This document shows positions 36,886-51,158 of a stretch of 64,000 bases of DNA, piece by piece; the stretch's first letter is position 1, and every line of letters starts with the position of its first letter. The stretch lies in the NCBI GenBank assembly GCA_050115495.1, contig JASFQK010000033.1:17362-81361 (forward strand), read 5' to 3'. Below the pieces are notes generated by a model. It saw nothing but the letters and a program-made list of their open reading frames with translations, ran no database searches and had not been told where the DNA came from. This stretch comes from Phycisphaerae bacterium (GTDB lineage Bacteria; Planctomycetota; Phycisphaerae; UBA1845; Fen-1342). The translations under genes were made by a program, and so were the position numbers.

Positions 36886-39800
36886 ATGCCTACCGTATCG
36901 AACAACACACGGGTAGTGACCAGGTCGACATCCTCACGCCGGCGACGCGGAGCGCTTAGCGTCGGCCTCTGGCTGGCCGCGATGCTCCTCGCCGCCTGGC
37001 CGGCCAGCGCGCTGGCCCAGACCGACCCGGCGACCTCGACGGTCGTGGCCGCCGACGGCGTGGCCGTCGCCAATGGCGTCGACACCGAGCTCATCACGGT
37101 GACGTTGCTCGACGCCACGTTGAACCCTGTGGTGGGCCACACCGTCTCGCTCGCCGCGATCGGTGCCCCCGCCGGCGTGGTCATCAGTGCTCCCTCCGGG
37201 CCCTCCGACGGCAGCGGCGAGGTAACCTTCACCGTTACCTCGACCGACTCGTACGCCGCCCCCGGCGTCGAGTTTGAGGCCACCGACGACACCGACACCG
37301 TCACGATTATCCAGACGGCCTTCGTCGTCTTTGACCCCGGCCCGACCAGCGCCGCGACCTCGACCGTCGCGGCCGCCGACGGGACGGCGGTTGCCGACGG
37401 CATCGAGACCGAGATCATCACCGTCACGCTGCTCGACGCCAACAGCAACCCGATTCCCGGCCACGCCGTCTCGCTGCTCGCGGACGGGTCGCCGGCGGGT
37501 GTGGTCATCGCCGCGGTTGGCGGACAAACCCACTCCGACGCCAACGGCCAGGTCTTCTACGCCGTTCGTTCGAGCGTCCCCCACAGCCCCGTCGGCGTTA
37601 CGTTCCGGGCCTATGACCTGACCGAGCTCGTCGCCATCACGCAGACGGCCGACGTCGTCTTCACCACCAACGAGACCGACGCCGGCACTTCCACGGTCAG
37701 CGCCAACCCCGCCACCGTGCCGGCCAACGGCACGACCACCAGCCTGATCACCGTCGTGCTGAGCAACGCGGGTGGTAATCCCGTGCCGGGTCACGCGGTC
37801 TCGCTCGCGGCGATCGGCGCCCCGTCCGGTGTCAGCATCAGCGCCCCGTCCGGTGTCTCCACCGCCGCCGGCGTCGTCACCTTCACCGTGACTTCCACCG
37901 ACGTCCACGCCGCCCCCGGCGTCGAGTTCGAGGCCACCGACGACACCGACGCAACGACCATCATCGACACGGCCTTCGTCGTCTTCGCGGCCGGCACCAC
38001 CAGCTCCTCGGCCTCGACCGTTGACGCGGCCGATGGCACCGCCCTGGCCAACGGCGTCGAAACCGAACTCATCACCGTCACACTGTTCGACAGCAACGGT
38101 CACCGGCTCGCCGGTCACAACGTCTCGCTGGCCGCCGTCGGCAGTCCCGCCGGCGTCGCCGTCAGCGCCCCCTCGGGCCCCTCGGACGTTGCCGGCCAGG
38201 TGACCTTCAGCGTCACCTCGAACGTCGCCCATGGCGCCCCCGGCGTTGAATTCCGGGCCACCGACACGACTGACGGCGTTGCCATCGCCGACACCGCCTT
38301 CGTCGTCTTCACCCCTGGCGCCACCAGCGCCAGTGCCTCGACCGTTGATCCGGCGGACGGCGCCTGCACCGCCAACGGCTCCGAAACCGAGCTCATCACC
38401 GTCACCCTGCGTGACGCCAACAACAACCCCATCGCCGGCCACAGCGTATCGCTGGCGGCCGTCGGTGCCCCCGCCGGCGTGAACATCAGTGCCCCCTCCG
38501 GACCCTCCACTGCCGCTGGCGTGGTCACCTTCACCGTGTCTTCCAGCGTGGCCTACGCCGCTCCCGGCGTTGAGTTCGAGGCCACCGACGATACGGCGGC
38601 GACGACCATTCTCGACACGGCGTTTGTCGTCTTCACCACGGGTTCGACGAGTTCGACCACCTCGGCGGTTGCGGCCGCCGACGGCACCGCCATCGCCGAC
38701 GGCGCCGAGACCGAGCTGATCACCGTCACCCTGCGCGACGGCAGCAGCAACCCGGTCGTCGGCCACAACGTCTCGCTGGTCGCCGTCGGCGCCCCGGCGG
38801 GTGTGGCGATCAGCGCCCCCTCCGGTGCCTCCGACGGCAGCGGTCAGGTAACCTTCACTGTCACGTCGACCGTTTCCCACGCCGCCCCTGGCGTTGAGTT
38901 CCGCGCCACCGACACGACCGACGGCATCACCATCACGGACACGGCCGCCGTCGTCTTCACCGCCGGCCCCACCAGTGCCGCGGCGTCGACCGTCGTTGCG
39001 GCGGACGGCGTCTGCGTTGCCAACGGCATCGATACCGAGCTCATCACCGTCACGCTGCGCGACGCCCTGGGCAACCCCGTCCCCGGCCATAACGTGACGC
39101 TCACCGCCCTCGGCGCCCCCGCTGGCGTCGGCATCAGCGGCCCCTCCGGCATCTCCGGCCCGGACGGCGTCGTCACCTTCACGGTGACCTCGACCGTGGC
39201 CCACGGTGCCCCCGGCGTCGAATTCGAAGCCACTGACACAACCGCCGGCACGCCGATCACCGATACGGCGCTCGTCGTCTTCGGCTCCGGCTCGACGAGC
39301 TCCACGACGTCCACCGTCGCCCCGGCGGATGGCTCGGCTGTCGCCGACGGCGCGGAGACCGAACTGATCACCGTCACGCTGCGAGACGTGAACAGCAACC
39401 CGGTCGTCGGCCACAACGTTGTCCTGGTCGCCGTCGGCGGCCCGGCGGGTGTGGCGGTCGGCGCCGCTTCCGGCCCCTCCGATGGCGCCGGCATCGTGAC
39501 CTTCAACGTGACCTCGACCGTCTCCTACGCCGCCCCCGGCGTTGAGTTCCGCGCTACCGACACGACGGACGGCGTCGCCATCGCCGGCACGGCGTTCGTG
39601 ATCTTCGTCCCCGGCCCGACCGACGCCACGACCTCGATCGTCGATCCGGTCGATGGTACCTGCGTCGCCAACGGTAGCGACGGCGAGCTCATCACCGTTA
39701 CGCTGCTCGACGCACTGGGCAACCCCGTCCCCGGCCACGACGTCACACTCGTCGCGGTCGGCGCTCCTGCCGGCGTCACGATCAGCGCCCCCTCCGGCTC

Positions 39801-42800
39801 CTCGACCACCGCCGGCATCGTCACCTTCACGGTCCGGTCGACCGTGTCCTACGGAGCCCCCGGCGTTGAGTTCGAAGCCACCGACACGACCGCCGGCACG
39901 ACCATCAACGACACGGCGCTCGTGATCTTCGGCTCTGGCTCGACCAGTTCTACAACGTCCACCGTCGCCCCGGCCGACGGTACCGCCGTCGCTGACGGCG
40001 CGGAGACCGAGCTGATCACCGTCACACTGCGCGACGTGAACAGCAACCCGATCGCCGGCCACAACGTGTCTCTGGTCGCGGTCGGCGCCCCGGCGGGCGT
40101 CGCGATCAGCGCCCCCTCCGGTGCCTCCGACGCCGACGGTCACGTGACCTTCACGGTCACCTCGACCGTCACGCACGCTGCCCCCGGCGTCGAGTTCCGC
40201 GCGACCGACATGACTGACGGTATCACGATCACGGGTACGGCTCTGGTCGTTTTCACCGCCGGCTCTACCAGTGCGGCCAACTCCACCGTCGACGCGGCCC
40301 CTACGCAGGTCGCCGCCGACGGCGTCGCGGCCAGCACCGTCACCGTCACCCTGCGTGACGGGCTGAACAACCCCGTTCCCAATCACAACGTCTCGCTGGC
40401 GGCCACTGGCTCTCCGGCCGGTGTGGTCATCAGCGCCCCGTCCGGCCCCTCCGATGCCAACGGCGTCGTGACCTTCACCGTTACGTCCACCATGGCGTAT
40501 GACCCGCCGGGCGTCGAGTTCGTGGCCACGGACGACACCGTCGCCGTCACCATCACTGACACGGCGGACGTCGCCTTCACGCCGGACGCGACCAGCCCGG
40601 TCAACTCCACGGTCGATGCGGCCGATGGCACGGCCACGGCCGACGGCGCCGACACCGAGCTCATCACCGTCACCCTGCGTGACGCCAACAACAACCCCGT
40701 GCCCAACCACGACGTCGCCCTCGAGCTCGTCGGCGGCGGCACCATCGACTTCGGCGTGCCCTCCGGGCCCTCCGGCGCGAACGGCGTGGTCACCTTCAAC
40801 GTCTCCACCACCGTCGCCGCCTCGCTCACCATACGGGCCGTCGACACCACGGCCAGCGTCGTCATCAACGACACGGCCATCGTCGACTTTGTCCCCGGCC
40901 CGGCTGACCACTTGAGCTTCGTGCAGCAGCCGACCAACGTGGCCACGGGCAGCACGATCAATCCGCCCGTTACCGTCGAGATCCTCGACGCCCAGAACAA
41001 CCGCGTCACCACCGCCGTCGACCTGGTGAACCTCGTCATCGAGGCCAACCCTGGCGGTGGCACGCTCGACGGCACGCTGCCGCAAGCCGCGGTTGCCGGT
41101 TTGGCTACGTTTGCCGATCTGACCATCGACCACATCGGCGTTGGCTACACGCTGCGGGCCGAGGCCGTCGGTCTCACGCCGGCCACGTCGGCGCTCTTTG
41201 ACGTCTCCGCCGGCCGCAACCTGGTCGCCACCAGCGTCGAGCTGGTGAACGTCGGCGAGCAGCGGCACCTCCAGGCCAACTATTTCGTCGAGGGCGCCGA
41301 AATGCTCGGCGAGTTCGACATCACCTATCGCATCGAGCGTGCCGGCGGCGCCCTGGTCCATGAGGACACGGTGCGCATCACCGCCGCCGACCTGCGCACG
41401 CCCGGCTCGCGCAAGGCTGACCTGGGCGACATCCGTCCGTTCCTCAACGAGGTTATCGCTCAGGGTGACCGCCTGCTTATCGCCCTCGATTCCGCCAACG
41501 AGATCGACGAGGGCACGGCCGCCAACGAGACCGACAACGACGCCGAGACCTCGCTGACCGTCGACCTGGCCAGCCAGTCGATCGTCGCCGACGTCCAGGG
41601 TGTGAACTCCAGCGTGCGCGTCACGTACGCCGTGAACAGCCCCGCCGACGTGCCGCCCTTCGTCATTCGGGTCGGGATCGACACCAACGGCGACGGCACG
41701 ATCGACGACACGCTCCGCGACTACAGCACGGCGGCGGACGAGATCACGCCGGGCACGCACGTGGCCATCGTCGCACTGCCCACGCAGTTCACCGCCCGCG
41801 GCCTCGCCGCCAACGCCAACATCCGCATCGTGGCCCAGTTGGACGCCACCGGCACCGTGCTCGAATCCGACGCCGGCAACAACCGGGCCAACACGCAGAC
41901 CACGTACGGCGTCGACCTCGTGCTGACCCGCCTGGTCTTCCCCGGCACCGCTCTGGGGCAGGACTTCGAGGTCACGCTCGACTACACCGTTAACTCCAAC
42001 CCGGTCAGTGAGAACTTCACGATCGGTTTCTACGTCGCCGGCGATTCGCAGATCAGCGCCGCCAGCCTCGGTTCGGCCACGCGCTTCGCGACGCGGACCA
42101 TCACTACCGCGGCCGACCGCACCGTCGGCCTGCACACGAAGACGTTCGTGCTGAACATCCCGGCGGATGCCTTCGCCAGCATCAACTTCTTCGTCAAGGC
42201 CCGCATCGACGACGGCGCCGGCGTGACCGAGGTGGACGAGGGCAACAACATCATCGCTTCGCCCAACTCCACGTCCGATCCGAACGCCGATGTCGACGGC
42301 GACGGTCTCACCCGGCAGGAGGAGGAATCCGGCTTCCAGATTCCGGCGAACCAGATCTACCGCGCCGATGAGCCCCTGAGCAACGCGATCAGCCCGCTCG
42401 GTACCCGCACGTTCGATACCGAGCGTGACAGCGACGCCGACGGCCTCGACGACCGCCTCGAGCGTAAGACCGGCACCAACCCTGCCGACCGCGACAGCGA
42501 TGGCGACGGCATCACGGACGGCGTGGAAGACGCCAACCAGAACGGCATCGTCGACGCCGGCGAGACGAACCCGCGCCACTGGGACTCCGACGAGGACGGC
42601 CTCTCCGACCTTGAGGAGTTGACCGGCTTCGACATCACCCGCTACCCGGCCGGCCTCCAGTCCGGCCGCTTCCAGCGACAGCTCGTCGTGCGCGTTACGA
42701 CCGATCCCCGAAGGGCGGACACCGACGGTGACGGCCTCAGCGATTGGGACGAGGTCAACACCTACGCCCGGTCCGCCGACGGTGACGGCGGCGTGCCCAG

Positions 42801-43671
42801 CATCGGTCTGGACGCGCTCACGGCCCGGATCAGCCGCGCCGTGAACAAGCCGGTCTGGGGCATTCGCACCGACCCGACCCTCATCGACACCGACGAGGAC
42901 GGCCTGCCCGACTCCACCGACCCGGCGCCGGCCATCAACCCGGCTCGCTGGGGCTACGACACCCAGCCCGACGGCGGCACGGCGGACGGCCTCTTCAACG
43001 ACGAGGACATCCAGCGCCTGCGCACCGACCCCCGTCTCACGGCCGAACAGCAGGCCACCTACCCGACGACCGTCGAAGCCTTCCAGCGCCTGCTGCTCGA
43101 CTTCGACCAGGACCGCGACGGGTTCCTCGAAGCCCCCGACGCCAACGGCGACGGTTTCCCCGACTTCACCCGCTACAACGAGGCCACCCTCGAGCAGTCT
43201 TACCGCATCGACTTCAGCAACAACGGCAGCCTCGATGACGGCTTCGACGTCGGCGGTCTCAACCCCGGCAACGCCGACGCCCCCGCCGACACCAGCGGCG
43301 CCGCCCGCTACGGCTCCTACCGCGTCACCCACGCCGACGCCGGTGTGGCCCGCGGCGACGGCACGCTCGATCTCGCCGACGACACGCTCGATGCTCCGGG
43401 CGACGCCATCGGTTTCCTGCTCCTGGCCGACAACTGCCCCAACGAATACAACCCTGGCCAGGAGGACTTCGACGGCGACGGTCTCGGCGACCTGTGCGAC
43501 GCCGATCTCGATAACGACGGTGTGCCCAACGACATCGACTCCGTCCGGCAGACGCCGCTGGCCACGCCGGTCTGCGGTCTCGGCGTTGTTCAGGCCATGA
43601 TGCTCAGCCTGGCCGGTCTCATGGGCCTGCGCCTCGGCGGCGGCGCGCGTCGGCGACGCTCGGCCTGCTAG
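36886..43671 (+). CDS. Large surface adhesin-like protein: 12 Big_1 (invasin/intimin-type Ig) repeats, further Ig/CARDB-like domains, Ca-binding DxDxDG/TSP3 repeats, C-terminal CGxG-TM-basic anchor
   Basis: Signal ending ALA; 12 copies of ...A(D/N)G...ITVTLxD...NP..GH.VSL; DSDGDGITDG and DNCPNEYNPGQEDFDGDG; ends CGLGVVQAMMLSLAGLMGLRLGGGARRRRSAC. Confidence 0.9.
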   Translation: MPTVSNNTRVVTRSTSSRRRRGALSVGLWLAAMLLAAWPASALAQTDPATSTVVAADGVAVANGVDTELITVTLLDATLNPVVGHTVSLAAIGAPAGVVISAPSGPSDGSGEVTFTVTSTDSYAAPGVEFEATDDTDTVTIIQTAFVVFDPGPTSAATSTVAAADGTAVADGIETEIITVTLLDANSNPIPGHAVSLLADGSPAGVVIAAVGGQTHSDANGQVFYAVRSSVPHSPVGVTFRAYDLTELVAITQTADVVFTTNETDAGTSTVSANPATVPANGTTTSLITVVLSNAGGNPVPGHAVSLAAIGAPSGVSISAPSGVSTAAGVVTFTVTSTDVHAAPGVEFEATDDTDATTIIDTAFVVFAAGTTSSSASTVDAADGTALANGVETELITVTLFDSNGHRLAGHNVSLAAVGSPAGVAVSAPSGPSDVAGQVTFSVTSNVAHGAPGVEFRATDTTDGVAIADTAFVVFTPGATSASASTVDPADGACTANGSETELITVTLRDANNNPIAGHSVSLAAVGAPAGVNISAPSGPSTAAGVVTFTVSSSVAYAAPGVEFEATDDTAATTILDTAFVVFTTGSTSSTTSAVAAADGTAIADGAETELITVTLRDGSSNPVVGHNVSLVAVGAPAGVAISAPSGASDGSGQVTFTVTSTVSHAAPGVEFRATDTTDGITITDTAAVVFTAGPTSAAASTVVAADGVCVANGIDTELITVTLRDALGNPVPGHNVTLTALGAPAGVGISGPSGISGPDGVVTFTVTSTVAHGAPGVEFEATDTTAGTPITDTALVVFGSGSTSSTTSTVAPADGSAVADGAETELITVTLRDVNSNPVVGHNVVLVAVGGPAGVAVGAASGPSDGAGIVTFNVTSTVSYAAPGVEFRATDTTDGVAIAGTAFVIFVPGPTDATTSIVDPVDGTCVANGSDGELITVTLLDALGNPVPGHDVTLVAVGAPAGVTISAPSGSSTTAGIVTFTVRSTVSYGAPGVEFEATDTTAGTTINDTALVIFGSGSTSSTTSTVAPADGTAVADGAETELITVTLRDVNSNPIAGHNVSLVAVGAPAGVAISAPSGASDADGHVTFTVTSTVTHAAPGVEFRATDMTDGITITGTALVVFTAGSTSAANSTVDAAPTQVAADGVAASTVTVTLRDGLNNPVPNHNVSLAATGSPAGVVISAPSGPSDANGVVTFTVTSTMAYDPPGVEFVATDDTVAVTITDTADVAFTPDATSPVNSTVDAADGTATADGADTELITVTLRDANNNPVPNHDVALELVGGGTIDFGVPSGPSGANGVVTFNVSTTVAASLTIRAVDTTASVVINDTAIVDFVPGPADHLSFVQQPTNVATGSTINPPVTVEILDAQNNRVTTAVDLVNLVIEANPGGGTLDGTLPQAAVAGLATFADLTIDHIGVGYTLRAEAVGLTPATSALFDVSAGRNLVATSVELVNVGEQRHLQANYFVEGAEMLGEFDITYRIERAGGALVHEDTVRITAADLRTPGSRKADLGDIRPFLNEVIAQGDRLLIALDSANEIDEGTAANETDNDAETSLTVDLASQSIVADVQGVNSSVRVTYAVNSPADVPPFVIRVGIDTNGDGTIDDTLRDYSTAADEITPGTHVAIVALPTQFTARGLAANANIRIVAQLDATGTVLESDAGNNRANTQTTYGVDLVLTRLVFPGTALGQDFEVTLDYTVNSNPVSENFTIGFYVAGDSQISAASLGSATRFATRTITTAADRTVGLHTKTFVLNIPADAFASINFFVKARIDDGAGVTEVDEGNNIIASPNSTSDPNADVDGDGLTRQEEESGFQIPANQIYRADEPLSNAISPLGTRTFDTERDSDADGLDDRLERKTGTNPADRDSDGDGITDGVEDANQNGIVDAGETNPRHWDSDEDGLSDLEELTGFDITRYPAGLQSGRFQRQLVVRVTTDPRRADTDGDGLSDWDEVNTYARSADGDGGVPSIGLDALTARISRAVNKPVWGIRTDPTLIDTDEDGLPDSTDPAPAINPARWGYDTQPDGGTADGLFNDEDIQRLRTDPRLTAEQQATYPTTVEAFQRLLLDFDQDRDGFLEAPDANGDGFPDFTRYNEATLEQSYRIDFSNNGSLDDGFDVGGLNPGNADAPADTSGAARYGSYRVTHADAGVARGDGTLDLADDTLDAPGDAIGFLLLADNCPNEYNPGQEDFDGDGLGDLCDADLDNDGVPNDIDSVRQTPLATPVCGLGVVQAMMLSLAGLMGLRLGGGARRRRSAC
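37021..40890 (+). repeat. Intragenic tandem array of 12 ~330-bp Ig-domain repeats
   Basis: Recurrent GAGCT(C/G)ATCACCGTCAC and CCCGGCGT(C/T)GAGTTC blocks at about 330-bp spacing. Confidence 0.85.
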
Positions 43672-43701: not shown

Positions 43702-43733
43702 AGCGGCGGCCGAACCAACGTTCGGCCGCCGCT
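43702..43733. terminator. Intrinsic terminator between convergent genes
   Basis: AGCGGCGGCCGAAC-CAAC-GTTCGGCCGCCGCT 14-bp perfect stem; GTTTT follows on the minus strand. Confidence 0.75.
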
Positions 43734-43771: not shown

Positions 43772-45073
43772 TTACGGCGCCGGCTGCGTCGTCGCCGGCG
43801 GCTTGGGCCGCGCCCTGTGCGGCGCGCGCACCACCGGGATGCGCAGCGGTTTGTTGCCGTCGTTCTCCGTTCGCACGATCACGAAGGTTGATCCCGGCGG
43901 CTCGTAGTCTGCGGGGACCGTCAGCGTGATCACCGGTCGCGGCTCTGCATCGTAGCGCACCTTGACCGTCGGGTCCGTGCACGACACGTTCACGACCTTG
44001 TCTTCCTGGCCCGGTGCCCACGCCAGCCGCACGGCGAAGTCCTGCTCGGCCGGCAGATTGGCCGACAGACCGAAGCGCGGCGGCACCGATCGCAGCCGCG
44101 GTGTCAACTGCCCGATCACGCGGATTCGCTCTTCCGGCGACTCCGGCACACCTGTCTTCACCACCAGCGTCTCACGCAGGTACTTCTTCGGCCAGGGCGG
44201 TGTGAACGTCACTTGGAGCTCGTACCGCTCTCCCTTCTCGACCTCGCGCACCTCCACCGTCAATTGCGGGTTCTTCGGCGTTTCCACCACCGGCGCGATC
44301 GGTCCGCCGTCCCCGCGGGTCAGCCTCAGCTTGCGCGTGATGGCGGGCGTGCTCGCCGTGACCAACCCGAAGTTCACGAGCGACGGACTGAGGCGCAGCG
44401 GCTCGTACACGAAACCCTTGCACACCAGCCGCAACTGTGCCTGCTGGGCGTCGTTCGTCTCAACGCGGACAGTCTTCTCGAACTTGCCCCGCCGAGCCGT
44501 CGTCGGGACACTCACCTTGACTTCTTCTGCCTGACCCGGAGCGATGGTACGGTCCAACTGACCGTGGATGGTGAGCCCTCACGGCTTCAGCAGGTGGATG
44601 TCCAGGGCGCCTTGCCCCTCGTTGCGCACCGAGAAAACGAACTCGATGCTTGGGCCCCGCCAGCAGGCCGCCTTCTCCAGCTCCGGCTTGTCACACGTCA
44701 CTTTCGGCTGCGGCTGATCCGCTGGCGGGGGGATCAACCGGCGATTGCTGGTATCCCCGCAGCCCTTCGCCCCCGCCGGCTGCGTGGCCGGCTGCGGTGT
44801 GGCGGGTTTCTTCTCCTGTGACTTATCGGCCCCTTCCTTCTTCTTCGCCTCGTGGGCTTGGCGGACCGCCTCCTCGATCATGCGGATCAGCTCGGCGTCC
44901 GATTGCTGGGTCGGCTGGCTGGCCGGGGGCTCGGTTACTTCCTGCGGAACCGGGCCAGCGCCCGCCCGCGGGACCACCGCCACACCCAACGCGATCGCCA
45001 GCACCAGCGCCCCGCCCGCAATCCACGGGCCCGGTCGCCTGCCGTTTCGCCCCTTCGCCCTAATTCCCTTCAT
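43772..45073 (-). CDS. DUF1573-like secreted multi-Ig protein A with in-frame UGA at codon 165; candidate selenoprotein (433 aa if read through)
   Basis: ORFs 44579..45136 and 43772..44557 are in the same frame, separated by one TGA (44579-44581): FSVRNEGQGALDIHLLKP-TGA-GLTIHGQLDRTIAPGQAEEVKVSV...GKFEKTVRVETND. ATG 45073 has a GGAG RBS and is followed by a hydrophobic signal. Confidence 0.75.
44549..44565 (-). promoter_or_regulatory. Candidate bacterial SECIS hairpin A
   Basis: UGA + 13 nt + ACGGUC-AGUUG-GACCGU; loop begins 19 nt after the UGA with G at loop position 2. Confidence 0.62.
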
Positions 45074-45261
45074 TGACTCCGTCCTGGGTAGGCCCACTCG
45101 CCGACCAACGTACGCCTGCCGGTTCCCGACCGACAACAGCCGGCTATTCTATCGACCACTTGGTTATTCACCAAAACCCCCCGGGCGCACGCCAAATAGA
45201 ACCGCCGCCGGCAGAAGCCGGCGGCGGTCTGATAGTCGTCATTGCGATGCGCCCGGTCGCG

Positions 45262-46710
45262 CTACGGCGCGGGCTGCGTGGTCGGCGGTTGCGCCCTGAC
45301 CCGCGACGGCGGCTTGGTCACCCGCGGCGCGGCCTGCCTGGCAGGCTGCCCCCGTACCGGCGGCGTCCCGGCCCCAGCTCCAGCCGCCGGCCGGATTCCT
45401 CGTACCGGCTGCCGCACGACCGGAATCCGCAGGTTCGGCGCTTCCGTATCGTCCGTCATCACGGTGACCGCCACCACGCCCGTGGGCGAGTAATCCGCCG
45501 GGATGCTCACCACAACGTACGGTTTTCCGTCACGTTCCTCGTACCGTCCCGTCAGAGCCGTGTCCGAGCACACCACCTTCAGGACCTTGCCCGGGTTCGA
45601 TCCGGCCCACATCAACTGCACCGGCACTTCGAGCGCATCCGGCAACACGGCCGGCACACTCAGCCGCGGCGGATTCGCCCTCAACCGCGGCGGCGTCCGG
45701 CCCAGCACCGAAATCGTCTCGATCGGGCTTTCGGTCACGCCTGTCTTGAGCGACACCGTCCCGCGGAAACTGCTCGACGGCAATGGCGGCGTCAGCGTCA
45801 CGTCCAGCTCGTATCGCTCGCCGGGCTCGACTTCCCGAAGCTGCGCCGACATCTGCCGCTCGGCGATCGGCATGAGCTCCAGGGCCAGCGGCCCGCCGTC
45901 ACCACGCTTGATCTGCAGCGTCTTCGTCTGCGGTCCGCCTTCCCGGTTGAACGCGTTGAAGTTCACGATGCGCAGGTTCGTCGTGAACGGAACCAGCGCC
46001 TTGCCCTTGCACGATAGTGCCACACTGCGGTTCTGCGGGTCATTCGTCTGTACGCGGATGTCCTTGCTGAAGGCACCGGACCGCGACCGCGTGCTGATGC
46101 TTACCTTCACTTCTTCCGTTGCGCCCGGCGCGATAGAACGGTCAGCCTGACCGTCGATCTTGACGCCTCACCCTCCCTTGGCGCGGATATTCAGCACGCC
46201 CTCTCCCTCGTTCTTGATCTTGAATACGAACTCCGCCATCGCCCCGCCCCACGTCGGCGCCGCCTCCACGAGCGGTTGCTCGCAGACGTACTTCGGTTGC
46301 GGCTGATCCGCCGCCGGCGGCGTCAGATCCAGCTTCCCCGTCGCTCCGCCACAGCCCGACGCCGGCTTCGCCGCCTGCGGCGCTTTCTGAGTCGGAGTCT
46401 GCGGGTTGGCGGGTGCCGGTCTCACCGGACGCACCACGGGCGGAGCCGTCTTCGGCGGCGCCGTGGTTCCCTCCTGCTGCGCCTGACGGACCAGCTCCTC
46501 GATCTGCCGCGTCAACTCCTCTGCCGTCGGGTTGTCGCCACCGGCCGGCTGCGATGCCGGGGGCTGTGCGCTGCTCACCGCTTGCCCGGCCCCATCACCA
46601 GCCCAGGCAACCTCCGCCCCCAGTAACGTGACTACCAGTACGCACAGTCCCGGCACCAGCAGATGACGCAGCCATCTGCGGGCCGACCTGCCTTTGTCCA
46701 CGCTTACCAT
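45262..46710 (-). CDS. DUF1573-like secreted multi-Ig protein B with in-frame UGA at codon 181; candidate selenoprotein (482 aa if read through)
   Basis: ORFs 46168..46773 and 45262..46110 are in the same frame, separated by one TGA (46168-46170): FKIKNEGEGVLNIRAKGG-TGA-GVKIDGQADRSIAPGATEEVKVSI...GAFSKDIRVQTND. ATG 46710 has a GAGGA RBS and a signal ending AWA. Confidence 0.75.
46138..46154 (-). promoter_or_regulatory. Candidate bacterial SECIS hairpin B
   Basis: UGA + 13 nt + ACGGUC-AGGCU-GACCGU; stem and spacing identical to hairpin A. Confidence 0.62.
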
Positions 46711-46877
46711 CCGTAGTCCTCGATGAGAATCATGCACCCGCGCCGCTTCGGCACAGCCCGTCATCGGCAGCAAGGCCGCGCACGGCGACGCAAAGTCGCT
46801 ATTATACCGCGCGCCGCCGGGCAGTGGTACGGAATTACCGGTCCGCGCCGCCGGCCAACCGATCAGGAGGTGCTCCG

Positions 46878-49986: not shown

Positions 49987-50667
49987 TTAGCGGCGGCGGA
50001 GCATGAAGACGCCCAGACCGATCAGCAGCAGGCTGGCCGGCTCGGGAACCGCCTCGGCGGTGAGCTGCCAGTTGACGTCGAACGGGGTGCCTTCGTTGTT
50101 GACCTGCTGATAGGTGAAACCGAAGCTGCCGCCCGGGTTCCACTGGTAGTCGTTGGCATTGCCGAGCGACGTCTGGTAGGCGTACGCTTGGCCGCTCGTC
50201 GCGTACTCACGCACGGCCTGGAAGACCATGTAGTAGCTGCCCGCGGGGAGGAGGGCATGGTCGAAGTCCGCGCCCATGGTGCCGGCCGACAGCAGCGTGT
50301 CGTAGCCGCCGGTCGCGGTCAGCACGATGGAGCCGCTGTCCCAGGGCAGACCGTCGTAGATCAGGAAGTTGGCGCCCTGGCCGTCCACGGTGCCGTTGGT
50401 GAAGCCTTCGGCCACGACATCGTCGACGTAGTAGTCGACGCTGGTTTCGAAGTCGGAGACGACCCAGATATCGTACCCATCATACGCCGTTTCGAAATCC
50501 TGGGCGGCACTCCCGTATGTCTGAATGCCGTCATAGGCGTTGCCCAGCGTGTCGCGGTCCTGCACGGTCGGCCGGGCCGCGGGGGCGTACGCCGTCGAGT
50601 TGAGCGGCTCAGCGAACGCGCCGCCGGCCATGAGCAAAACAGCCAGAACCACAATACCTCTCTTCAT
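49987..50667 (-). CDS. PEP-CTERM sorting-domain protein
   Basis: Signal MKRGIVVLAVLLMAGGAFA; ends VPEPASLLLIGLGVFMLRRR. Confidence 0.93.
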   Translation of the reverse strand: MKRGIVVLAVLLMAGGAFAEPLNSTAYAPAARPTVQDRDTLGNAYDGIQTYGSAAQDFETAYDGYDIWVVSDFETSVDYYVDDVVAEGFTNGTVDGQGANFLIYDGLPWDSGSIVLTATGGYDTLLSAGTMGADFDHALLPAGSYYMVFQAVREYATSGQAYAYQTSLGNANDYQWNPGGSFGFTYQQVNNEGTPFDVNWQLTAEAVPEPASLLLIGLGVFMLRRR

Positions 50668-51158
50668 CTCCAACTCCTTCAACTCCAGAGACCTCCAAAC
50701 TCCTCTCTTGCGACCAAGCCCAAAAGACATGCGGGCCTTCTCGCGCAAGAGCTAACACGCGGACGGCGGTCGACAGAACAACACTGGCAGTCGCCGTCGG
50801 TGCGAGACCGAAGACAAACCGCCGTCTATACCTTTCTGTTCTGTTTGATTTCTCTTTCGGCGCCCGATTACACAATTCGGCCGAAAGGCGTCCAACAGCC
50901 GCACAACGTGGCACAGGTGCGGTTGTGCCTCGGCATTACTCAGATGCCAACGTAGCCAGATTCCATATGCATGTCAATTGAAGTTGGGCCCAGCGCCGGC
51001 GGGTCGATTGTCAATAATTGTTAGATGTCGTGTTGCTCGGGAAGCGGAAGCGCAGCACGCCGTCTCTTCTCGGACCGTCCGCACTGCACATCGACCGTCG
51101 CGCTCGTCGATCAGCTCGGCTCGTCAGCTGGCGGAGACGCCGGCGGCACGCCGTCGCC

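What the first reader, a model, noticed from the sequence alone, without database searches (positions are those of the whole stretch)
43772..46710. Two tandem DUF1573-like paralogs each carry an in-frame UGA at the motif-Cys position: candidate selenoprotein pair hidden as four ORF fragments
Seen: ORF pairs 46168..46773/45262..46110 and 44579..45136/43772..44557 are each in one frame and separated by a single TGA. Read through, both give a continuous domain: NEGEGVLNIRAKGG*GVKIDGQADRSIAPGATEEVKV and NEGQGALDIHLLKP*GLTIHGQLDRTIAPGQAEEVKV. The TGA follows the same 14-residue segment (starting at the N of NEG) in both, although the paralogs are otherwise well diverged. Known: the DUF1573 (PF07610) consensus is F.f.N.G..pL.I..v..sCgC....i.PG, so the TGA falls on the Cys motif. 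Inference: independent nonsense mutations at the same codon of two diverged genes are unlikely, so UGA is probably decoded as selenocysteine. This would give signal-peptide-bearing Ig-fold selenoproteins, unlike the classic redox-enzyme selenoproteins. I cannot confirm novelty, and no selA/selB/selC/selD genes lie in this window.
Basis: partly seen in the sequence, partly recalled or inferred. Interest (0 to 1): 0.93.

Follow-up and report, generated by a model that had tools for sequence, protein, structure and literature searches.

The report
Tandem exported selenoproteins, new motif variant
Two neighbouring genes that look broken by a stop codon almost certainly encode exported selenocysteine proteins of an already listed family, but this branch lacks the family's usual partner cysteine and seems to carry a replacement on a long flexible arm.

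Summary
Both genes carry one in-frame TGA (A: residue 181 of 482; B: residue 165 of 433) on the first-Cys column of the DUF1573 C-G-C motif. Sec decoding is about 96% likely. The genome has selA, selB, selD and tRNA-Sec. That column is TGA in 92 of 131 homologs and Cys in the other 39. A SECIS-type hairpin 19 nt downstream shows compensatory pairs. pN is below pS on both sides of the codon. Protein collections hold both genes as four fragments.

The family is not new. DUF1573/OS_HP2 is catalogued as a predicted selenoprotein (2007; motif U-G-C), and this scan noted DUF1573 selenoproteins before in at least 51 other genomes.

What differs: this Phycisphaerae clade reads G-G-U-G-x with no Cys at +2 (0 of 92), scores below the NF041425 cut-off, and has three Ig-like domains. 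It usually carries a G-C-G about 60 residues upstream on a tether. Among 96 full-length clade members, 66 have the tether Cys, 24 have a local Cys instead, 6 have neither and none has both. Most likely it is an envelope thiol/selenol redox protein whose resolving Cys sits on the tether; this is inferred and not significant after correcting for kinship.

The parts
45262..46710 (-). Gene A: 482-aa exported protein with signal peptide, low-complexity tether, three PapD/ASH-like Ig domains and a basic Pro-rich tail; Sec181
   Evidence: GAGGA upstream of the ATG
46168..46170 (-). In-frame TGA of A = Sec181 in G-G-U-G-V, in the loop between two strands of Ig domain 1
   Evidence: secondary structure of the model
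46138..46154 (-). SECIS-type hairpin of A (6-bp stem counted, 5-nt loop with G at position 2, loop 19 nt after the UGA)
46348..46356 (-). Tether G-C-G of A (Cys120, 61 residues before Sec), the proposed resolving or partner cysteine
   Evidence: role inferred
46600..46710 (-). Signal peptide of A (basic n-region, hydrophobic stretch, A-W-A cleavage motif at about residue 37)
   Evidence: read by eye; AF2 helix 10-34; no signal-peptide predictor was run
45201..45228 (-). 12-bp GC-rich inverted repeat followed by a T-rich tail: likely terminator between A and B
   Evidence: seen directly; one search lists a part of it (5 sites found against 2.1 expected in shuffles)
43772..45073 (-). Gene B: 433-aa paralog with the same architecture; Sec165
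   Evidence: GGAG upstream of the ATG
44579..44581 (-). In-frame TGA of B = Sec165 in K-P-U-G-L
44549..44565 (-). SECIS-type hairpin of B (same stem, loop with G at position 2)
44756..44764 (-). Tether G-C-G of B (Cys105, 60 residues before Sec)
43702..43733 (-). 14-bp hairpin with a T-rich tail: likely terminator after B

Best explanation
Both genes are intact selenoprotein genes. SelB binds the hairpin 19 nt after the UGA and tRNA-Sec inserts selenocysteine (well supported, about 0.96). The products are exported by an N-terminal signal peptide and fold into three tandem PapD/ASH-like Ig domains, with Sec in a glycine-rich loop of domain 1 (fold predicted). Most likely function (inferred): a cell-envelope thiol/selenol redox protein. 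Sec attacks a substrate disulfide or oxidised thiol; the resulting adduct is resolved by a second cysteine to a Se-S bond, which an exported TlpA-type thioredoxin reduces again. In the catalogued family the second Cys is at +2 (U-G-C). In this clade it is gone, and the job appears to fall to a G-C-G on a tether about 60 residues upstream, or in other branches to a Cys at +26, -1 or -2. A and B are a lineage-specific tandem duplication, probably transcribed separately. The confidence given is for this whole mechanism, not for the Sec reading.
For: SHOWN, Sec reading. Machinery in the genome: selA E=2.6e-132, selB 2.1e-14, selD 1.1e-109 with its own in-frame TGA, tRNA-Sec 66.7 bits against a cut-off of 47. 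All 19 of 41 related genomes in which I placed the TGA on this column have selA, and 18 of 19 have the SelB winged-helix domain. None of the 6 genomes without a selA match showed a TGA inside a match. The hairpin is present in 27 of 28 Sec genes found without the DNA pattern, 0 of 30 canonical C-G-C genes and 2 of 9 Cys genes inside the clade. One stem pair is U-A in 78, C-G in 13 and broken in 1 of 92 (64 of the 92 were found only by a pattern that demands a stem). In 21 genes found by protein search, 98.4% of cells pair, 17 cells change on both sides, and slid controls reach at most 45%. pN is below pS on both sides of the UGA in 8 of 8 close pairs. SHOWN, anatomy. The AF2 model has mean pLDDT 95.4 and an all-beta three-domain layout; best single-domain matches are HYDIN PapD-like, VAP MSP and CEP192 ASH domains (Z 10-11, rmsd 2.6-3.4). 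No Cys at +2 or -1 in 92 of 92 Sec genes. Of 96 full-length clade members: tether Cys only 66, local Cys only 24 (16 Sec, 8 Cys forms), neither 6, both 0. 55 of 72 tether Cys lie 56-64 residues before Sec and 49 of 72 read G-C-G. Five of five in-clade C-C-G rows on the tree lack the tether Cys. SUPPORT FOR REDOX. 12 of 16 long canonical C-G-C homologs carry fused CxxC motifs; 5 of 10 proteins scanned hit AhpC-TSA/Redoxin.
Against: No experiment shows Se incorporation; the family is listed as predicted, not verified. The exclusive pattern of tether versus local Cys rests on few events: 10 changes of the tether and 6 of the local Cys on the tree, and the independent-pairs test gave a median p of 0.5, with about 2 agreeing pairs, 0 opposing and 3 uninformative. 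Six full-length Sec genes have neither. My definition of a tether Cys was set after seeing the data. No thioredoxin domain is fused in the Sec clade, and no neighbour family was shared by more than 9 of 84 loci. B's 45-nt segment folds no better than shuffles (z -0.11; A z -2.42). Extra Cys at -38 and +53 could be the partners instead; both are present in 57 of 92.
Confidence: 0.5

Rival explanations
1. Sec is decoded, but the site binds a soft metal (Cu(I), Hg, Ag) in the envelope, with Sec and the tether Cys as a two-coordinate ligand pair, as a chaperone or sink.
For: It fits the same two-chalcogen pattern. C-C-G and C-G-U variants exist in the clade. Earlier scan notes suggest copper handling for Cys-Sec DUF1573 proteins of other phyla (unchecked AI notes, a lead only).
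Against: No recurring metal-transport neighbour was apparent in the clusters from 84 loci (judged by eye from translations, not by a family scan). The homologs' fusion partners are thioredoxins.
Confidence: 0.25
2. Sec is decoded, and the proteins are structural or chaperone components of a surface structure such as a Tad pilus; the Sec/Cys pair forms a stabilising or intermolecular cross-link and is not catalytic.
For: The fold matches PapD-like pilus chaperones (EcpB, YadV, CsuC, SafB at Z 9.4-9.8) and ASH/MSP scaffold domains. The genome's Cys paralog pair on contig C1 lies directly after TadZ-, T2SSE- and two T2SSF-family genes.
Against: The PapD-like fold is common and shows no function. 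The Tad linkage was seen for one Cys paralog pair in one genome and not tested elsewhere. A and B are flanked by ilvC and a large Big_1 repeat protein. Keeping Sec across a whole clade is costly for a purely structural bond (inference).
Confidence: 0.2
3. UGA is a true stop: the genes are split into separately translated halves, or are pseudogenes.
For: Gene callers annotate four fragments. TGA ends neighbouring genes such as ilvC.
Against: The stop would cut one beta-sandwich in the middle. 65 of 92 Sec genes have no in-frame ATG within 30 codons after the TGA, and the rest are scattered (GTG/TTG not counted). The downstream half has no signal peptide. Cys forms in the same clade are continuous. 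pN is below pS on both sides, and the hairpin is conserved with compensatory changes.
Confidence: 0.03
4. The organism reads UGA as Trp or Gly throughout (code 4 or 25).
For: None beyond the in-frame TGA itself.
Against: 18 of 18 AhpC-TSA matches and 5 of 7 DUF1573 matches in the genome have no internal stop; selA and selB have none. A tRNA-Trp(CCA) and a true tRNA-Sec are present. Homologs have only TGA or Cys codons at the column.
Confidence: 0.01

Closest known systems
OS_HP2 / 'DUF1573 domain-containing protein' predicted selenoprotein family (Pfam PF07610, NCBIfam NF041425). PMC1976440: passages and section 12 read. PMC2398784: table passage. PMC9312934: table passage. PMC13188914: passages and section 7 parts 1-2 of 3. 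PMC12013277: supplement passages with three sequences.
   Same: Same domain, Sec on the same column (first Cys of C-G-C), N-terminal signal-like segment, function unknown, predicted only.
   Different: The catalogued motif is U-G-C (U-x-C); here +2 is T/V/I/L/M/A/F/R/K/G and never Cys (0 of 92). A and B score 46 and 52 bits against the NF041425 cut-off of 100, while a canonical Cys homolog reaches 101.6. The representative sequence in PMC12013277's supplement is about 240 aa by eye with no long tether; these are 433-482 aa with three Ig domains and a tethered G-C-G. The host is Phycisphaerae (record titles); OS_HP2 was first reported from deltaproteobacterial Olavius symbionts.
Canonical Cys DUF1573 proteins of the same order, many fused to TlpA/ResA-type thioredoxin domains
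   Same: Same Ig scaffold and catalytic-column Cys; three such unfused paralogs are in this genome.
   Different: C-G-C motif, no hairpin (0 of 30), no tether Cys (1 of 30 by my rule), often 1-3 thioredoxin domains. They form a separate clade (SH-aLRT 100).
ASH/PapD-like Ig domains (HYDIN, CEP192, VAP MSP domain, pilus chaperones; P. gingivalis protein 2qsv)
   Same: Fold of each domain; 2qsv is also the best sequence hit in the PDB (E=0.017).
   Different: Identity is 5-19%; the shared fold gives no function.
DsbD/ScsB N-terminal Ig-like redox domain (recalled, from no call)
   Same: Works-like analogy: a periplasmic Ig-type domain with a reactive Cys pair served by a thioredoxin domain.
   Different: It is not among the rows listed, so no structural kinship is shown; this is an analogy only.

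Membership tests
Bacterial selenoprotein gene (UGA + bSECIS) | In-frame UGA aligned to Cys in homologs | tested here: met
   92 TGA, 38 TGC, 1 TGT of 131 genes; 3 fragment rows with a gap at the column were dropped
Bacterial selenoprotein gene (UGA + bSECIS) | selA, selB, selC, selD in the genome | tested here: met
Bacterial selenoprotein gene (UGA + bSECIS) | bSECIS model of PMC13188914 Fig. 2A: loop 3-9 nt, stem 4-16 bp, G in the first two loop positions, 16-37 nt spacing, MFE at most -7.5 kcal/mol | tested here: met
   5-nt loop, 5-6 bp stem, G at loop position 2, 19 nt spacing; 45-nt segments fold at -19.1 (A) and -10.8 (B) kcal/mol; covariation. B's energy is not better than shuffles.
Bacterial selenoprotein gene (UGA + bSECIS) | Conservation and purifying selection on both sides of the UGA | tested here: met
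   8 of 8 close homolog pairs have pN 0.01-0.17 against pS 0.18-0.50 on both sides; A and B themselves had no partner close enough
Bacterial selenoprotein gene (UGA + bSECIS) | Selenium in the translated product | not testable with these tools
   needs 75Se labelling or mass spectrometry
DUF1573 domain family (PF07610) | Score above the Pfam gathering cut-off | tested here: met
   43.3 and 47.9 bits against 26.1
OS_HP2 selenoprotein family (NF041425) | Score above the curated cut-off of 100 bits | tested here: not met
   46.4 and 51.7; two other clade members 44.9 and 61.6
OS_HP2 selenoprotein family (NF041425) | U-G-C / U-x-C motif | tested here: not met
   A has U-G-V, B has U-G-L; Cys at +2 in 0 of 92 Sec genes
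OS_HP2 selenoprotein family (NF041425) | Sec on the first-Cys column of the DUF1573 motif | tested here: met
   compared by eye with the sequences
DsbD-type Ig redox domain | Structural kinship to the DsbD N-terminal domain | tested here: inconclusive
   not among the listed rows; an unlisted family is not excluded

The most novel reading that the evidence does not exclude
A Phycisphaerae-wide, uncatalogued clade of exported Ig-fold selenoproteins in which the resolving cysteine of the family's U-G-C motif has moved onto a flexible N-terminal arm about 60 residues away, and has been re-created at least six times at other nearby positions (+26, -1, -2) when the arm's cysteine was lost. It would be a natural series showing that the DUF1573 Sec site needs exactly one partner thiol wherever it comes from, and so the first mechanistic handle on a family listed since 2007 with no function in the catalogues read.
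Probability: 0.4. Interest if true: 0.6.

Novelty: new variant of a known kind. Interest (0 to 1): 0.38.

Why it matters
At minimum it corrects annotation: about 90 genes in Phycisphaerae-type genomes carry this UGA, and the two examined here are filed as fragments. The 2026 catalogue counts proteins with the same domain but a different Sec motif as distinct subfamilies and lists only U-G-C for DUF1573, so this would be an added subfamily. If the tether model is right, it gives a concrete, testable mechanism for a DUF1573 protein: an Ig-fold envelope redox site with a swinging resolving cysteine. It also adds to signs that these planctomycetes put selenocysteine into exported proteins.

Tried and rejected
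1. The search for related loci with alignment A1 returned an error because no stretch was conserved enough; a degenerate DNA pattern was used instead. Of its 91 distinct matches, 5 were non-homologous chance hits (2 TGG, 2 TGC, 1 TGA) and were dropped. The pattern demands the hairpin, so hairpin frequency is quoted from the 28 genes found without it.
2. The single-sequence AF2 model was poor (mean pLDDT 48.6) and was replaced by the alignment-based model.
3. A genome-wide selenoproteome scan with my own codon model missed A, B and selD, its positive controls, so it says nothing about the size of the selenoproteome.
4. A narrow genome scan for this exact hairpin gave 35 hits; by eye only A and B had plausible reading frames on both sides.
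5. Neighbourhood analysis found no conserved operon: ilvC in 7 of 84 loci, an alpha/beta hydrolase in 5, one other family in 9.
6. No Sec-containing AhpC-TSA partner was seen in the genome (0 of 18 matches with an internal stop).
7. The independent-pairs test of tether loss against local-Cys gain was not significant. The careful tree did not finish; the quick IQ-TREE and FastTree trees were used.
8. The RNA run covers parts of A but not B, and contigs cannot show expression level or exclude DNA. Runs X3 and X4 have small shares and are not used for habitat.
9. The Atlas search returned only hypothetical/DUF1573 clusters.
10. No sigma-70-like promoter was found.
11. One search translated the wrong strand of selD and was repeated.
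12. Literature: 'DUF1573' gave 4 papers (two read in part, two seen as listings only). 'selenoprotein' + 'Phycisphaerae' gave one unrelated listing. One search gave 8 listings. Haft and Tolstoy 2025 is not held. BSepDB (PMC13326102) was searched in its main text only, with no DUF1573 mention; its database and supplements were not seen and, being a homology search over 64,000 genomes, may already contain these genes under the DUF1573 label.
13. No complex prediction, the search for homologous proteins or the search of protein representatives was run.
Full report
OBSERVATION. Gene A runs 46710-45262 (482 aa, TGA = codon 181, 46168-46170) and gene B 45073-43772 (433 aa, TGA = codon 165, 44579-44581) on the minus strand; they are 42% identical. 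Both pass the PF07610 cut-off when read through. All four fragments exist as separate entries in the public protein collection. A 304-nt contig from an RNA run spans A's TGA and a DNA contig from another study spans B's, both without differences; contigs cannot prove transcription.

SEC MACHINERY. The genome (92% complete) has selA, selB, selD and tRNA-Sec on four other contigs. selD has its own in-frame TGA followed by a hairpin. Among 41 genomes including this one, selA is found in 35 and the SelB winged-helix domain in 33. All 19 genomes in which I placed a TGA on the column have selA, and 18 have the SelB domain. The 6 genomes without selA show no TGA inside a match, but they also lack close orthologs, and kin are not independent. 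TGA is otherwise an ordinary stop here.

HOMOLOGS. A protein search of relatives, a class-level profile search (23 of 301 genomes at E at most 1e-22) and a DNA pattern scan of the genome collection (92 stretches) gave 131 distinct genes: 92 TGA, 38 TGC, 1 TGT (3 fragment rows dropped). The pattern allowed any TGN codon. Of its 91 distinct matches, 86 were homologous and all of those read TGA; the other 5 were chance hits. Nearly all record titles name Phycisphaerae or Planctomycetota. On a tree of 93 rows the Sec genes and their few Cys derivatives form one clade of 67, apart from 26 canonical C-G-C genes (SH-aLRT 100; quick tree). A and B are neighbours with moderate support (85) in that tree and unresolved within one group in the second. 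The UGA is therefore ancestral to both, and Cys forms inside the clade are reversions (4 changes). Eight close pairs show pN well below pS both before and after the UGA.

SECIS. A stem C-G-G-(U/C)-C / G-(A/G)-C-C-G with a five-base loop, G at loop position 2, has its loop 19 nt after the UGA, which meets the bSECIS model as given in PMC13188914. In 21 genes found by protein search, 98.4% of cells pair, two pairs change on both sides, and no shuffle or slid register comes close (relatedness inflates the shuffle test). One side of the U-A/C-G pair is a synonymous Gly position and the other changes Asp to Gly, so the protein follows the RNA. The hairpin is in 27 of 28 Sec genes found without the pattern, 0 of 30 canonical genes and 2 of 9 in-clade Cys genes. 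Folding energy alone is weak evidence: z -2.42 for A and -0.11 for B over 45 nt.

ANATOMY. Both proteins begin with a signal-peptide-like segment (by eye). A hydrophobic stretch is found in 75 of 88 Sec genes, and 7 of the 13 misses are loci cut short. AF2 with a 93-row alignment gives three all-beta domains at mean pLDDT 95.4, matching ASH/PapD-like domains. Sec sits in the loop between strands 63-68 and 73-76 of the model, so a stop there would cut domain 1 in two. Each gene is followed by a terminator-like hairpin. The flanks are ilvC and an alpha/beta hydrolase on one side and a 2261-aa Big_1 repeat protein on the other. No neighbour is widely conserved.

THE DIFFERENCE FROM THE KNOWN FAMILY. 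None of 92 Sec genes has Cys at +2 or -1. Instead most carry a Cys, usually in G-C-G, in the low-complexity region before domain 1, 56-64 residues upstream in 55 of 72 cases; A has it at Cys120 and B at Cys105. Among 96 full-length clade members, 66 have this tether Cys and no local one, 24 lack it and have a Cys at +26, -1 or -2, 6 have neither and none has both. On the tree there are 6 gains of a local Cys, all in rows without the tether Cys, and 10 changes of the tether. The independent-pairs test is not significant (median p 0.5), and my tether rule was set after seeing the data. One clean case is a tandem pair in G008, where the Sec copy has the tether Cys and its sister copy reads C-C-G without it. 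Position +26 lies just after strand 88-96; that it neighbours the Sec loop is inferred from Ig topology, not measured.

MECHANISM. Shown: UGA/Cys alternation, machinery, hairpin covariation, selection on both halves and the motif pattern. Predicted: the fold. Inferred: export, and that Sec works with one partner thiol. Canonical C-G-C homologs in the same order are often fused to thioredoxin domains with CxxC (12 of 16 long forms), which points to thiol-disulfide exchange in the envelope. I give 0.5 to a redox role with the tether Cys as resolving residue, 0.25 to soft-metal binding, 0.2 to a structural or pilus-related role (PapD-like fold; a Cys paralog pair beside tad-like genes), and 0.04 to no Sec at all.

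COMPARISON WITH WHAT IS KNOWN. OS_HP2 was reported as a new predicted selenoprotein family in PMC1976440, tied to pfam07610 with U-x-C in PMC2398784, and listed as 'DUF1573 domain-containing protein, UGC' in PMC9312934 and PMC13188914. These genes work like that family and share its Sec column, but fail two of its marks: the U-G-C motif and the NF041425 cut-off. They should be filed as DUF1573 selenoproteins of a separate subfamily, not as OS_HP2. I found no such form in the catalogue table or by the searches. BSepDB's contents and Haft and Tolstoy 2025 were not seen and could hold it. This scan has 54 earlier notes on DUF1573 selenoproteins in at least 51 genomes; those shown concern U-G-C and Cys-Sec forms, and none matched this DNA or protein.

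VERDICT. Real, and almost certainly a pair of selenoprotein genes; a new motif variant of a catalogued family, with a testable idea about its second cysteine. Interest 0.38.

Noticed in passing
G000:C24:38375-39037 minus strand (L180:1373-2038), outside the window: A small exported protein with a C-terminal PEP-CTERM-like tail and an in-frame TGA in C-G-U, followed by a hairpin much like the one after A and B. Of 11 matches in 9 of 41 genomes, 6 have C-G-TGA, one C-TGA, 3 C-G-C and one was not aligned over the site. No Pfam or NCBIfam hit. The scan had already reported it (e1-7821534, e1-7821538).
   Followed up: partly
G000:C1:82823-85107 minus strand (L181): A tandem pair of Cys-type DUF1573 genes (C-C-G-C and S-C-G-C) lies directly downstream of TadZ/CpaE-like, T2SSE ATPase and two T2SSF genes, that is a Tad pilus locus. 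Conservation of this linkage was not tested.
   Followed up: partly
L028, L161, L163, L165, L167, L177 and others (same order, other families): Canonical DUF1573 triple-Ig proteins fused to one to three TlpA/ResA-like thioredoxin domains with CxxC motifs.
   Followed up: partly
window 36886-43671 plus strand: A 2261-aa exported protein with 12 Big_1/invasin-D3 repeats, Asp-rich TSP_3-like repeats and a C-terminal Cys/Gly-rich membrane tail, convergent with gene B.
   Followed up: no
G000:C3:95769-95868: ARAGORN calls a second tRNA-SeC(TCA) here, but the Rfam tRNA-Sec model does not list it and its fold is not tRNA-like; probably a false call.
   Followed up: partly
L160 (G327:C32): A clade member with four or more repeated G-C-G/G-C-S motifs in its tether region instead of one.
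   Followed up: no
L076: One clade member lies in a record titled Desulfuromonadales and nests among Planctomycetota genes on the tree: misbinning, mislabelling or transfer; not tested.
   Followed up: no
window 49987-50748 minus strand: A 253-aa exported protein ending in a V-P-E-P motif, hydrophobic stretch and R-R-R (PEP-CTERM-like by recalled motif).
   Followed up: no
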